Positions 30,400-31,544 of a DNA stretch of 64,000 bases are shown one piece after another. The notes beneath the pieces are model-generated. The model searched no databases. It worked only from the letters and a program-made list of their open reading frames with translations, and was not told the DNA's origin. Source of the DNA: Escherichia phage Eryne; the sequence record PQ529420; one strand, 5' to 3'. The position numbers and the translations under genes were made by a program. How positions within the stretch are numbered: the stretch's first letter is position 1; each line of letters starts with the position of its first letter.

Positions 30400-31053
30400 T
30401 TAATTATCAGAGGATACTTTATCAAGTTTTTCAGAGACTGTCAATACTTTTTCTTGTGATTCTTTCATTTCTGCTAAAATACTTTCAGCTTCATCACTAT
30501 CAGGATCACCAGTCAACAGCATACTAATTAGTTGCTCCTTGCTGAAGTTCAGAATATCTTCCGCTGTTAGCTCCAGTTGTTCTTCGATCTCTTCAACAAA
30601 AGTTTCACCCCCTGAAAAAGCATCTCGTAGTTTTGCAACTTCCATTGCTTCTTCTGGGGTTGCCCCAGTGTCTAAAGCTGCTAAAGCAAAATCTGCCCCA
30701 CTACCAACAGCATAGTAATCTTCAGTTAAAGGATATGCTCGCGTTGGATTATTACCCTCGTGCATATAAATTTTACCGTCTGGGTGAACAACCAATGCCA
30801 CAAACTCTTCATCTTCTTTATCAGGATCGGACTGGATCACCAAACCTGGGATTGTCTCTTGTGCTGCTTGGCATTGTAAGTTTTGTTCGAACCAAGAAAA
30901 GAAAGTCAGGATAGAAGACAGACGTCCTGCACCACCAACAAGGTAGTCCCCAATTTTACGCACTTTCTTGAAATTTAAAGTGTCTACACGACTACCTACT
31001 GTTACTTTACCGTCAGACAGAATTTTGTTACGTGTTGCAATAATTGTTGTCAT
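30400..31053 (-). CDS. HslV-like Ntn-hydrolase peptidase (proteasome beta-type), putative
   Basis: N-terminal MTTIIATRNK...DGKVTVGSRV...KVRKIGDYLVGGAG aligns with HslV N-terminus including Thr2 nucleophile position; RBS AGGAGG. Confidence 0.55.
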   Translation of the reverse strand: MTTIIATRNKILSDGKVTVGSRVDTLNFKKVRKIGDYLVGGAGRLSSILTFFSWFEQNLQCQAAQETIPGLVIQSDPDKEDEEFVALVVHPDGKIYMHEGNNPTRAYPLTEDYYAVGSGADFALAALDTGATPEEAMEVAKLRDAFSGGETFVEEIEEQLELTAEDILNFSKEQLISMLLTGDPDSDEAESILAEMKESQEKVLTVSEKLDKVSSDN

Positions 31054-31544
31054 TGTACTTCCTCCTGTAGTGTTTTAAGGACTGCTTTACCACCGCTTAC
31101 ATATTTACGGAGGTAATCAATAGCTCTTAGTGTTTCTTTATCCACAAGAATTTTATTAGTTCTTGTTAGTGGATGATTTAGTAAATCACTGCAATTTCTT
31201 ACTAACATAGATTTCTTGTGAAAAATACTGCTAAGAAAAAGAAGTTTAGAATCTTCTTCATCAATCAGGAGTAATTCTGAATTAGACCCAGCTACATTTA
31301 TTATACACTCAAACAAGCCTTCTTGACTATCAGATAATTCCTGGTAATATTTAGTTAGCCAATCCTCGCCTTTTAACCAACTAAAAAACATCTGAACTTT
31401 TTGCAAAGTTGTCATGTTCTCTAAACGAAGAGATATTTCTTTTTCAATCTTGTCAATATAAATCTGTCTAAACTCATTCGGCTTAACTAAGCCAGCTTGA
31501 TAGCATTCATCAATACCATTGCGATCAATCTCAATTAGCGTCAT
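31050..31544 (-). CDS. hypothetical protein (164 aa)
   Basis: track ORF; ATGA overlap with HslV-like gene. Confidence 0.5.
   Translation of the reverse strand: MTLIEIDRNGIDECYQAGLVKPNEFRQIYIDKIEKEISLRLENMTTLQKVQMFFSWLKGEDWLTKYYQELSDSQEGLFECIINVAGSNSELLLIDEEDSKLLFLSSIFHKKSMLVRNCSDLLNHPLTRTNKILVDKETLRAIDYLRKYVSGGKAVLKTLQEEVQ

What the first reader, a model, noticed from the sequence alone, without database searches (positions are those of the whole stretch)
30400..31544. Orphan HslV-like peptidase with a co-transcribed unknown partner
The N-terminus (Thr at position 2, GSRV, KVRKIGDYLVGGAG) aligns with the HslV Ntn-hydrolase fold, but no HslU-like AAA+ gene is present nearby. The upstream 164-aa ORF overlaps its start (ATGA), suggesting co-translation. 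A phage-encoded proteasome-type protease could degrade host defence or regulatory proteins, or act with host HslU.
Basis: partly seen in the sequence, partly recalled or inferred. Interest (0 to 1): 0.5.

Follow-up and report, generated by a model that had tools for sequence, protein, structure and literature searches.

The report
Phage proteasome-like peptidase in PhoH operon
The gene is real and encodes an already-annotated, functionally untested phage relative of the bacterial HslV/proteasome peptidase; it ends a three-gene unit that starts with a PhoH ATPase, and in related phages a ClpP-type peptidase with the same C-terminal tail fills the same slot.

Summary
Window 30400-31053 (-) encodes a 217-aa protein starting MTT. 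Its catalytic set is invariant in the family: Thr2, Asp14, Lys30, Gly40, Gly-Ser-Gly 117-119. The AlphaFold model matches HslV, 20S beta and BPH structures. The 164-aa upstream ORF overlaps its start by ATGA.

The window is a phi92-like coliphage (Justusliebigvirus). The gene is phi92 gp058, already annotated 'peptidase HslV family / putative 20S proteasome'. Phage proteasome homologues (PPH, RPC) were described in 2021. No functional test turned up in the searches made here.

It is not an HslV orthologue: it scores 33 bits against a cut-off of 137 and lacks helix H2. It is not the head protease, because an S78-type protease sits next to the portal gene.

PhoH, gp059 and the peptidase form a unit bracketed by hairpins.

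In rV5-like phages, ICP1, Barba phages and many metagenomic phages, the slot after PhoH holds a ClpP-like peptidase. Some of these carry a C-terminal extension homologous to that of the HslV-like proteins (46% over 78 aa). Two near-identical Vibrio phages differ in exactly this core.

gp059 is a small lineage-restricted family with no known fold. It occurs next to either peptidase type.

Function remains inferred: accessory cytoplasmic proteolysis, ATPase partner unknown.

The parts
30400..31053 (-). HslV/PPH-like N-terminal-threonine peptidase (217 aa; phi92 gp058 orthologue), stop codon included
   Evidence: ORF. Pfam Proteasome 24.5 bits. PHROG 1040 E 6e-61. PDB HslV hits. AF2 model plus Foldseek hits to HslV, 20S beta and BPH. 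79 homologues on phage-sized contigs.
30589..31053 (-). Catalytic core, residues 1-155. Thr2 (31048-31050), Asp14 (31012-31014), Lys30 (30964-30966), oxyanion Gly40, Gly117-Ser118-Gly119 (30697-30705). One apical helix (45-67), then an acidic loop 68-84 in place of helix H2.
   Evidence: Invariant columns in alignments A1, A3 and A6. Residue correspondence to HslV Thr1/Asp17/Lys33/Gly45/Ser124 from the phmmer alignment. Secondary structure of the model.
30496..30579 (-). C-terminal extension motif 1, residues 159-186 (LELTAEDILNFSKEQLISMLLTGDPDSD). Shared with the HslV-like proteins of Shewanella, Vibrio and Aeromonas phages and with some ClpP-like phage peptidases.
   Evidence: An HMM built from HslV-like tails only hits peptidase ORFs only among 10,052 ORFs, including three ClpP-likes at E 1.9e-6, 1.4e-5 and 2.6e-4. 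BLASTP of the L093 ClpP-like tail against the window protein residues 159-216 gives E 3e-4.
30403..30495 (-). Variable acidic C-terminal helix, residues 187-217. The whole tail 156-217 has pI 4.05 and net charge about -12.
   Evidence: Charge calculation. Low-confidence helix 188-213 in the model. Variable in length and sequence among homologues.
31050..31544 (-). gp059-like protein (164 aa), unknown function, translationally coupled to the peptidase (ATGA at 31050-31053). Conserved motifs CYQxGLVKPNEFRQI, LVRDCSD, VDKETLRAIDYL.
31061..31066 (-). AGGAGG ribosome-binding site of the peptidase gene, inside the 3' end of gp059
   Evidence: Sequence upstream of the ATG. The same site is annotated in the phi92 RefSeq record.
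31581..32333 (-). PhoH-like P-loop ATPase (250 aa), first gene of the unit
   Evidence: Pfam PhoH 123 bits. PHROG 170. PhoH lies upstream of every tail-bearing HslV-like gene examined, and of 52 of 67 ClpP-like genes of the related subfamily.
30375..30387 (-). Terminator-like hairpin (CCCCTCAAGGGGG followed by TTTATT), 13 nt after the peptidase stop codon
   Evidence: Consensus scan. Sequence. Terminators are annotated here in phage Paula.
32350..32369 (.). GC-rich hairpin (AAAGGGGC-GAAA-GCCCCTTT) between the lysozyme gene and PhoH, marking the upstream boundary of the unit
   Evidence: The scan scored it on the + strand; the stem is palindromic and on the - strand is followed by TTTTAT.

Best explanation
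The 217-aa ORF encodes a catalytically intact N-terminal-threonine peptidase of the proteasome-beta/HslV superfamily. It is of the compact, H2-less type found in phages (PPH/RPC-like), not an HslV orthologue.

It is the last gene of a three-gene unit bracketed by hairpins: PhoH-like ATPase, then gp059, then the peptidase. The unit lies in the nucleotide-metabolism arm of a phi92-like coliphage.

Inferred mechanism:
- Host methionine aminopeptidase removes Met1 and exposes Thr as nucleophile. It works with Asp14 and Lys30 (HslV Asp17 and Lys33) and the Gly40 oxyanion hole.
- The subunits probably assemble into stacked rings that enclose the active sites.
- The roughly 60-aa acidic C-terminal extension projects outward and acts as the docking or targeting element.

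What is conserved across related phages is the arrangement, not the chemistry: PhoH, then zero to a few small ORFs, then a chambered peptidase, often with this extension. The core can be HslV-like (Thr) or ClpP-like (Ser).

The protein therefore most likely carries out accessory cytoplasmic proteolysis during mid infection. It is not head maturation, and it is probably dispensable in the laboratory. gp059 is a lineage-specific accessory of this module (adaptor or regulator), not a universal partner.

Shown: the fold, the catalytic residues, the operon anatomy, the synteny, the core swap and the shared extension. Inferred: Met removal, ring assembly, peptidase activity, timing, substrates and any ATPase partner.
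For: Fold and catalytic residues.

Not an HslV orthologue: NCBIfam HslV equivalogs score 32.9 and 30.5 bits against cut-offs of 137 and 157.75. The model has a single helix 45-67 followed by a loop, which is the hallmark given for PPH/RPC in PMC8665760.

Operon: 36-nt gap, then the ATGA overlap, with flanking hairpins.

Not the head protease: in the near-identical phage Nernie a Peptidase_S78_2 (XkdF-type) gene sits next to the portal. ICP1 and Barba phages likewise have a separate capsid protease.

The same slot holds a ClpP-like peptidase in rV5-like phages, CR9, ICP1, Vibrio 1.170.O and Barba phages. It does so in 52 of 67 IMG/VR loci, and is directly adjacent to PhoH in 39 of them. One of these is a different, roughly 34-kb phage type where the two genes overlap by 4 nt.

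Shared extension: the L093 ClpP-like tail is 46% identical over 78 aa to the Shewanella phage 1/4 HslV-like tail, E 2e-18. In a tblastn of this tail against all phage records, 21 of the 26 records hit carry an HslV-family, Clp, ATP-dependent-protease or head-maturation-protease label at the hit; the other five are labelled 'hypothetical protein' only, three of them GenBank twins of RefSeq records that carry such a label and two (Vibrio phages 1.245.O and HNL01) not examined.

Vibrio phages 496E54-1 and 166E36-1 are 94-99% identical in the flanks, but one has a ClpP-like core and the other an HslV-like core, with the last 37 aa 76% identical.

Timing by analogy: the ICP1 block gp176-gp211, which ends with its ClpP-like gene, peaks at 12 min (PMC7567579).

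Dispensability: the GenBank and RefSeq records of phage VEcB carry a deletion of about 1.13 kb that fuses PhoH to the peptidase and removes gp059 and the catalytic N-terminus.

gp059 lies next to both peptidase types.
Against: - No biochemical datum exists for any member. Activity, oligomeric state and substrates are all inferred.
- Much of the PhoH-peptidase synteny is among phages that share a longer conserved gene order (RNR, glutaredoxin, lysozyme, PhoH, and so on), so part of the linkage may be inherited rather than selected.
- Small PPH-like peptidases of phiCbK, Rhizobium, Erythrobacter and Vibrio eugene phages have neither PhoH nor the tail. ClpP-likes of T5-like and PAK_P-like phages lack PhoH.
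- Many PhoH-adjacent ClpP-likes have no extension.
- The window protein keeps only the first motif of the extension, and its match to the ClpP-like tail is modest (E 3e-4).
- The VEcB deletion could be an assembly artefact, since a re-sequenced VEcB is intact.
- Membership in the published PPH or RPC clusters could not be checked against their reference sequences.
Confidence: 0.62

Rival explanations
1. PhoH-coupled protease. The upstream PhoH-like ATPase (a RecA/SF1-type NTPase) is the energy-dependent partner of the peptidase. It docks through the conserved C-terminal extension, forming a new two- or three-component degradation machine, with gp059 as adaptor. This may act on RNA- or DNA-bound proteins, because the terminal motif of the long forms resembles an HeH/Rho_N motif.
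For: PhoH is upstream on the same strand of every tail-bearing HslV-like gene examined, and of 78% of the ClpP-like subfamily loci. It is often overlapping or within 60 nt, and this holds in 11 of 19 clusters at 70% identity and in an unrelated small-phage background. Two unrelated cores share one extension, which argues for a common non-host-specific partner. The Aeromonas tail gives a sub-threshold Pfam Rho_N hit of 16.8 bits.
Against: - PhoH is an SF1-helicase-like RNA helicase/ATPase according to the literature cited in PMC7824862, not a known unfoldase.
- PhoH occurs in very many phages without such peptidases.
- PhoH subtypes do not sort with peptidase core type in a neighbour-joining tree.
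- Many PhoH-adjacent ClpP-likes lack the extension.
- No fusion protein other than the VEcB deletion product was seen.
Confidence: 0.17
2. ATPase-independent standalone peptidase, like BPH or Anbu. It degrades only peptides and unfolded or nascent chains, for example to recycle amino acids from host proteins. The acidic loop and tail only gate access.
For: No unfoldase is encoded in the unit. The acidic loop 68-84 (SDPDKEDEEF) replaces H2 at the pore-loop position, and PMC8665760 notes a long acidic pore loop in the unfoldase-independent BPH. BPH is among the top structural matches. The small PPH-like homologues stand alone in unrelated phages.
Against: It does not explain the recurrent PhoH linkage, or why a homologous C-terminal extension is kept across a swap of the catalytic core. 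Gating by the loop is inferred from a monomer model with pLDDT 64-75 in that region.
Confidence: 0.25
3. Hybrid with host HslU. The phage subunit assembles with E. coli HslU, or mixes into host HslV rings, redirecting or poisoning the host HslUV protease.
For: HslV is the closest solved relative by sequence. All known hosts of these phages encode HslUV (general knowledge). Two of the HslU-pocket residues named in PMC6429459 are conserved or conservative: Phe57 corresponds to F52 and Phe54 to L49.
Against: - Helix H2, which carries the pocket residues Ala79 and Lys80, is absent.
- Gln114 corresponds to a variable Tyr107.
- Scores are about 100 bits below the HslV equivalog cut-offs.
- The core is replaced in situ by a ClpP-like core in near-identical phages, and that core would need ClpX or ClpA instead.
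- The shared tail points to a partner common to both cores.
Confidence: 0.1
4. gp059 is the obligate functional partner of the peptidase: an activator cap, an assembly chaperone, or an inhibitor that holds it in check until needed.
For: ATGA translational coupling. Nearly one-to-one co-occurrence in the Stephanstirmvirinae and their relatives. It is retained immediately upstream of the peptidase even where the peptidase is ClpP-like and tail-less. It is a confident, compact fold with invariant polar motifs.
Against: It is absent from Shewanella 1/4, Vibrio 1.084.O, Aeromonas, rV5-like, CR9, ICP1 and Barba loci, which have the same module. One relative has an extra 92-aa ORF between the two genes. 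There is no structural similarity to any known protease regulator. Retention may only reflect inherited synteny.
Confidence: 0.3
5. Morphogenetic protease: it processes capsid or other virion proteins, with the C-terminal extension targeting it into procapsids.
For: Phage ClpP-fold proteins are often head-maturation proteases, and the ClpP-like analogues hit such PHROGs secondarily. C-terminal targeting tails are known for prohead proteases (general knowledge).
Against: - It lies among nucleotide-metabolism genes, far from the structural module.
- A canonical S78_2 protease lies beside the portal gene.
- ICP1 has a separate late capsid protease, gp125, while its ClpP-like gene lies in the middle block.
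- The best PHROGs for the analogues are in category 'other', not head and packaging.
- A stock with the deletion was propagated.
Confidence: 0.04

Closest known systems
HslV (ClpQ), the peptidase of the bacterial HslUV protease
   Same: The same Ntn-hydrolase beta-sandwich fold. An N-terminal Thr directly after Met, without a propeptide, as in E. coli HslV. Asp17, Lys33, Gly45 and Ser124-Gly equivalents are present. It is the closest solved relative by sequence.
   Different: Identity is only about 22-27% in the structural alignments. It scores far below the NCBIfam HslV cut-offs. A 4-residue deletion shortens the first hairpin. Helix H2 is replaced by an acidic loop. It has a 60-aa acidic C-terminal extension. 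No hslU is adjacent; the gene follows PhoH and gp059.
[quoted passage not shown]
   Same: A group I (HslV/BPH-like) compact core of about 140-155 residues without insertions. It lacks helix H2, is encoded by tailed phages, retains the catalytic triad, and has a C-terminal extension as in RPC.
   Different: Cluster membership could not be verified against the published reference sequences. RPC was reported only from Proteobacteria, not phages. The paper does not describe a PhoH linkage, exchange with ClpP-like cores, or the shared extension.
BPH (beta-proteobacterial proteasome homologue)
   Same: A double-ring proteasome homologue with no known unfoldase and an acidic pore loop. It is among the top structural matches.
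   Different: BPH has both apical helices and forms heptameric rings. The oligomeric state of the phage protein is unknown.
Accessory ClpP-like peptidases of lytic phages (PHROGs 1827 and 5410 'ATP-dependent protease'; ICP1 gp211; rV5-like 'protease-like protein')
   Same: The same genomic slot downstream of PhoH, often followed by a DNA methyltransferase or ligase, in the same middle-gene region. In some members the C-terminal extension is homologous.
   Different: An unrelated fold and chemistry (Ser-His, ClpP/crotonase fold). This is analogy by non-orthologous displacement, not homology of the catalytic domain.

Membership tests
Proteasome-beta/HslV Ntn-hydrolase superfamily (Pfam PF00227) | Sequence match above the curated threshold | tested here: met
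   24.5 bits against a gathering score of 22.4, though only residues 11-63 align. PHROG 1040 E 6e-61 over residues 1-212.
Proteasome-beta/HslV Ntn-hydrolase superfamily (Pfam PF00227) | Alpha-beta-beta-alpha Ntn fold | tested here: met
   AF2 pLDDT 82, with the core mostly above 85. Foldseek PDB hits to HslV, 20S beta and BPH at E 2.5e-10 to 1e-8, probability 1.00, TM 0.53-0.68.
Proteasome-beta/HslV Ntn-hydrolase superfamily (Pfam PF00227) | Catalytic Thr1 exposed at the mature N-terminus, with Asp17, Lys33 and the oxyanion Gly | tested here: met
   T2, D14, K30 and G40 are invariant or nearly so in 58 homologues, and T2, D14 and K30 are invariant across distant phage lineages. No upstream start codon exists. 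Actual Met removal was not testable.
HslV proper (NCBIfam TIGR03692 / NF003964 equivalogs) | Score above the equivalog cut-off | tested here: not met
   32.9 bits against 137, and 30.5 bits against 157.75.
HslV proper (NCBIfam TIGR03692 / NF003964 equivalogs) | Two apical helices (H1 and H2) forming the HslU-facing surface | tested here: not met
   The model has helix 45-67 only. Residues 68-84 are a loop.
HslV proper (NCBIfam TIGR03692 / NF003964 equivalogs) | Cognate hslU in an operon, or use of HslU through the inter-subunit pocket | tested here: inconclusive
   No hslU in the window or annotated in the near-identical phage Nernie. Pocket residues from PMC6429459: Phe57 corresponds to F52 (kept), Phe54 to L49, Gln114 to a variable Y107, and the Ala79/Lys80 region is absent. 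Binding to host HslU is not testable here.
HslV proper (NCBIfam TIGR03692 / NF003964 equivalogs) | Dodecamer of two hexameric rings | not testable with these tools
   Only monomer prediction was available.
PPH / RPC (PMC8665760) | Compact group I core of about 140 aa lacking helix H2 | tested here: met
   The core is residues 1-155 with a single helix in the first helix pair. The same region is short in all phage homologues.
PPH / RPC (PMC8665760) | Encoded by tailed phages or prophage regions | tested here: met
   247 phage records carry it. Metagenomic homologues lie on contigs up to 157 kb.
PPH / RPC (PMC8665760) | Clusters with the published reference sequences (WP_042125023.1 for PPH, WP_140207863 for RPC) | not tested
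Phage head-maturation protease | Encoded in the head module beside the portal, scaffold or major capsid genes, as the only such protease | tested here: not met
   The gene lies in the nucleotide-metabolism arm. A Peptidase_S78_2 gene (44.1 bits against a gathering score of 24) lies next to the portal gene in phage Nernie.
gp059: PHROG 14834 (unknown function) | Full-length profile match | tested here: met

The most novel reading that the evidence does not exclude
PhoH-like ATPases of phages, whose role has been an open question for decades, work together with a chambered peptidase encoded just downstream. The catalytic core of that peptidase is interchangeable (ClpP-like Ser or HslV-like Thr). 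What matters is a shared C-terminal extension, with an HeH-like terminal motif, that docks the peptidase to PhoH or to a common nucleic-acid-bound target. gp059 would be a lineage-specific adaptor. This would be a new class of ATP-dependent phage degradation machine.
Probability: 0.15. Interest if true: 0.85.

Novelty: new variant of a known kind. Interest (0 to 1): 0.45.

Why it matters
The gene is already annotated as an HslV-family or 20S-proteasome-like peptidase in dozens of phi92-like genomes, and phage proteasome homologues were catalogued in 2021.

What this analysis adds, and what I did not find in the literature I could search, is context that makes the function testable:
1. The peptidase belongs to a recurrent PhoH-peptidase module.
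2. Its catalytic core has been exchanged in situ with a ClpP-type core, even between near-identical Vibrio phages.
3. Both core types can carry a homologous C-terminal extension.

PhoH is one of the most widespread phage 'auxiliary' genes and has no known role in infection. A defined genetic partner, a natural deletion variant (VEcB) and natural core-swap pairs give concrete experimental handles.

If the module degrades host proteins, it is also relevant to phage therapy, because phi92-like, rV5-like and ICP1 phages are all in use or under study.

Tried and rejected
- **Remote sequence search for gp059.** A profile search over 1.84 billion representatives gave 13 hits, with no fusions and no annotated domains.
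- **gp059 homologues in Aeromonas phage 4L372XY.** The ORFs upstream of its HslV pair gave hhalign probability 0.2%, so this was rejected. The gp059 HMM also found nothing in the rV5-like, CR9, ICP1, Vibrio, Shewanella or Barba loci.
- **PADLOC (defence systems).** No hit for the peptidase, gp059 or gp057.
- **Phage AAA+ partner.** Two PF00004 paralogues exist in the genome outside the window. Their distribution is Stephanstirmvirinae plus unrelated Gram-positive and jumbo phages, and it does not track the peptidase module, so there is no support.
- **Co-adaptation of PhoH subtype with peptidase core type.** The neighbour-joining tree mixes the two types, so this is not supported.
- **The search for homologous proteins with the 91-aa extension.** Nothing was found, which is a limitation of the word index.
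- **Supplement of PMC8665760.** It holds no member lists.
- **rV5 and phi92 structure papers.** Neither mentions the protease.
- **Head-maturation role.** Considered and rejected, as set out under the rival explanations.
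Full report

Yes. The - strand carries a 217-aa ORF at 30400..31053 and a 164-aa ORF at 31050..31544. The upstream stop and the downstream start share ATGA at 31050-31053. An AGGAGG site precedes the downstream start, at 31061-31066.

No earlier start codon exists in the frame, so Thr is residue 2 and there is no propeptide.

**2. Where the window comes from**

The region is 98-99.8% identical to 53 phi92-like coliphages (Justusliebigvirus, Stephanstirmvirinae).

The gene is phi92 gp058. RefSeq and GenBank already call it 'peptidase HslV family', 'putative 20S proteasome', 'nucleophile aminohydrolase' or 'putative proteasome component'. The upstream ORF is phi92 gp059, 'hypothetical protein'.

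**3. What the 217-aa protein is**

Sequence and fold evidence:
- It passes the Pfam Proteasome threshold (24.5 against 22.4 bits).
- It matches PHROG 1040 'peptidase HslV family' at E 6e-61.
- It finds HslV chains in the PDB at E 1e-7 to 1e-4.
- An AlphaFold2 model built on 58 homologues (pLDDT 82) has HslV, archaeal and eukaryotic 20S beta subunits and BPH as top Foldseek matches, at E about 1e-10 and probability 1.00.

The residues corresponding to HslV Thr1, Asp17, Lys33, Gly45 and Gly-Ser124-Gly are T2, D14, K30, G40 and G117-S118-G119. They are invariant or nearly so in the family. T2, D14, K30, G117 and G119 are invariant even when phiCbK, Rhizobium, Erythrobacter, Vibrio, Shewanella and Aeromonas phage homologues are added.

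It is nonetheless not an HslV orthologue:
- The NCBIfam HslV equivalogs score 33 and 30.5 bits against cut-offs of 137 and 158.
- The model has only one apical helix (45-67). An acidic loop, residues 68-84 (SDPDKEDEEF), follows where HslV has helix H2.

[quoted passage not shown] The protein fits that description.

Beyond the core (residues 1-155) there is a 62-residue acidic tail, with pI 4.05 and net charge about -12. The model predicts it as helical with low confidence.

**4. The upstream ORF (gp059)**

It has no Pfam, NCBIfam or PADLOC match.

An exhaustive profile search of 1.84 billion cluster representatives finds 13 proteins, all 55-182 aa and without other domains. It is therefore a small family restricted to one lineage.

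Within that lineage it tracks the peptidase: 133 phage records carry it, against 136 with a peptidase at >=60% identity. Its homologues (34-38% identical) sit between PhoH and the peptidase in distant metagenomic relatives and in Klebsiella phage KP13-16.

It is absent from Shewanella phage 1/4, Vibrio phage 1.084.O and Aeromonas phage 4L372XY, which have clear homologues of the peptidase including its tail.

**5.

Directly upstream, on the same strand, lies a PhoH-like P-loop ATPase at 31581..32333 (Pfam PhoH 123 bits).

GC-rich hairpins lie between the lysozyme gene and PhoH (32350-32369) and 13 nt after the peptidase stop (30375-30387, followed by TTTATT). PhoH, gp059 and the peptidase therefore look like one three-gene unit.

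Every tail-bearing HslV-like gene I examined has PhoH 66-2666 nt upstream. The small tail-less PPH-like genes of phiCbK, Rhizobium, Erythrobacter and Vibrio eugene phages have no PhoH.

**6. Non-orthologous displacement**

The two most distant full-length gp059 homologues (E about 1e-12 in the unbiased search) lie in the same synteny. There the gene that follows is a ClpP-like serine peptidase, with Pfam CLP_protease at 33.9 and 43.8 bits against 20.2 and a conserved Ser and His.

Cultured phages show the same slot filled by a ClpP-like protein: rV5-like Vequintavirus, Cronobacter CR9, Vibrio cholerae phage ICP1 (gp211), Vibrio phage 1.170.O (after a PIN-PhoH fusion) and Rheinheimera Barba phages. 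A DNA methyltransferase or ligase often follows, as in phi92.

In an IMG/VR scan with this ClpP-like subfamily:
- 52 of 67 loci with enough upstream sequence have PhoH upstream on the same strand.
- 39 of them have it directly adjacent.
- This holds for 11 of 19 clusters at 70% identity.

One such contig is a different kind of phage: about 34 kb, with a 503-aa major head protein, and with PhoH and the ClpP-like gene overlapping by 4 nt.

ClpP-like genes of T5-like and PAK_P-like phages are not next to PhoH, so the link is specific to a subfamily.

**7. A shared C-terminal extension**

I built an HMM from residues 156-186 of the HslV-like family only (consensus ELTrEdlselSKEqLLnllltG). Among 10,052 ORFs of all fetched loci it hits peptidase ORFs only. 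These include three ClpP-like proteins, each just after their core, at E 1.9e-6, 1.4e-5 and 2.6e-4.

A second HMM, built from the terminal motif of long HslV-like forms, hits one ClpP-like protein (locus L093) at E 1.7e-6 and nothing else outside the HslV-likes.

Directly compared, the L093 ClpP-like tail is 46% identical over 78 residues to the tail of the Shewanella phage 1/4 HslV-like protein (E 2e-18). It also matches the window protein residues 159-216 (E 3e-4).

A tblastn of that tail against all 50,697 phage records finds 26 records. In 21 of them the hit lies in an ORF annotated as HslV family, Clp protease, ATP-dependent protease or (ClpP-like) head maturation protease. The other five carry only 'hypothetical protein' there: three are GenBank twins of RefSeq records that do carry such a label, and two (Vibrio phages 1.245.O and HNL01) I did not examine.

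The cleanest case is a pair of Vibrio phages, 496E54-1 and 166E36-1 (136.9 kb each):
- The flanking DNA is 94-99% identical.
- The 62-aa ORF between PhoH and the peptidase is 100% identical.
- One phage has a ClpP-like core and the other an HslV-like core. Only the last 37 residues are alike (76%).
- Their PhoH proteins are only 25% identical.

The terminal motif resembles an HeH/Rho_N motif. The Aeromonas protein gives Pfam Rho_N at 16.8 bits, which is below threshold.

**8. What it is not**

*Not the head-maturation protease.* In the near-identical phage Nernie, a 159-aa gene beside the portal, mislabelled as a methyltransferase, is a Peptidase_S78_2 (XkdF-type) protease. It scores 44 bits and also hits head-maturation-protease PHROGs. 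ICP1 and Barba phages also have separate capsid proteases. The ICP1 block gp176-gp211, which ends with its ClpP-like gene, peaks at 12 min, before the late genes.

*No positive evidence for host HslU.* The pocket residues named in PMC6429459 are only partly kept: F52 and L49 are retained, Y107 is variable, and the H2 part is missing. A ClpP-like core can replace this one.

*No support for a phage AAA+ partner.* The genome does encode two AAA (PF00004) paralogues of unknown function outside the window. Their distribution among phages does not follow the peptidase module.

*No sign of PhoH-core co-adaptation.* PhoH subtypes do not sort by peptidase core type.

**9. Dispensability**

The GenBank and RefSeq records of phage VEcB have a deletion of about 1.13 kb. 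It fuses PhoH residues 1-113 in frame to peptidase residues 64-217, removing gp059 and the catalytic N-terminus. A later VEcB assembly and 53 of 55 records are intact. If the deletion is real, the whole unit is dispensable for propagation.

**10. Verdict**

The gene is a known, annotated member of the phage proteasome-homologue group with untested function, so by itself it is of modest interest.

The added value lies in three points: the PhoH-linked module, the in-situ exchange of HslV-like and ClpP-like cores, and the homologous extension on both. Together they point to a conserved role for 'a chambered peptidase with this tail next to PhoH' and make that role testable. Which ATPase, if any, feeds the peptidase, and what it degrades, remain unknown.

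Noticed in passing
L142 (OX241444.1 98995-104114) and L143 (OZ196864.1 99214-104318): Vibrio phages 496E54-1 and 166E36-1 are 94-99% identical around the locus. Yet PhoH is only 25% identical and the peptidase core is ClpP-like in one and HslV-like in the other. The 62-aa ORF between the two genes is 100% identical and the last 37 aa of the peptidases are 76% identical. This is a natural core-swap pair.
   Followed up: yes
Phage VEcB records MT932211.1 / NC_052663.1 (21394-22365); corresponds to window ~30865-31994: A deletion of about 1.13 kb fuses PhoH residues 1-113 in frame to HslV-like residues 64-217 (protein vecB_055, P0043), removing gp059 and the catalytic N-terminus. The re-sequenced VEcB (OZ035773.1) is intact. 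It is either a viable natural deletion or an assembly artefact.
   Followed up: partly
L020:22936-23415 (- strand; phage Nernie PP925835.1, outside the window): The 159-aa gene between the portal and a 371-aa hypothetical is annotated 'DNA methyltransferase' (via PHROG 1530). It matches Pfam Peptidase_S78_2 (XkdF-type, 44 bits) and head-maturation-protease PHROGs. It is probably the mislabelled prohead protease of phi92-like phages.
   Followed up: partly
L021:48712-49839 (-) and L022:14049-15209 (+) (phage Nernie, outside the window): Two paralogous AAA ATPases of 375 and 386 aa (PF00004, PHROG 2376, weak p97/Cdc48 similarity) of unknown function. One record calls them 'FtsH-like protease'. 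They are shared with Erwinia jumbo phages, Salmonella phage 7-11 and many Gram-positive myophages.
   Followed up: partly
L006:2932-3483 and L006:3501-4328 (Aeromonas phage 4L372XY): Two adjacent HslV-family genes. gp205 (183 aa, MTCI..., GCG instead of GSG, no tail) is followed by gp206 (275 aa, with the tail and an HeH-like end). This could be a heteromeric pair reminiscent of alpha/beta subunits.
   Followed up: no
MG065639.1, MG065645.1, MG065656.1, MG065689.1 and MG065690.1 in the 'phages' collection: Records named 'Campylobacter phage' (host C. jejuni) are about 99% identical to E. coli phi92-like phages (or, for A135, rV5-like phages). They are probably mislabelled or contaminant genomes.
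   Followed up: no
window 29930-30358 (-): gp057-like 142-aa ORF (PHROG 15078, unknown function, no Pfam hit). It starts just after the terminator-like hairpin and overlaps the start of the downstream DNA methyltransferase (29431-29940) by 11 nt. The methyltransferase uses a GTG start.
   Followed up: no
window 33296-34126 (-) and onward: An RmlD-like dTDP-4-dehydrorhamnose reductase ORF, and in phi92 a full rmlABCD-like set upstream of the glutaredoxin, lysozyme and PhoH genes. This is a phage-encoded dTDP-rhamnose pathway.
   Followed up: no
L018:1365-2765 (Vibrio phage 1.170.O): Here the ATPase upstream of the ClpP-like, tail-bearing peptidase is a 466-aa PIN-PhoH (PhoH2-type) fusion. This links an RNase/helicase directly to the peptidase slot.
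   Followed up: no
L004:6001-7140, P0061, P0063-P0067: Some HslV-like homologues (280-379 aa) carry a further C-terminal domain with conserved Cys and Trp motifs (for example ...WxENTGExPV...W(R/K)L). It is unrelated to the HeH-like end of other long forms and has unknown function.
   Followed up: no
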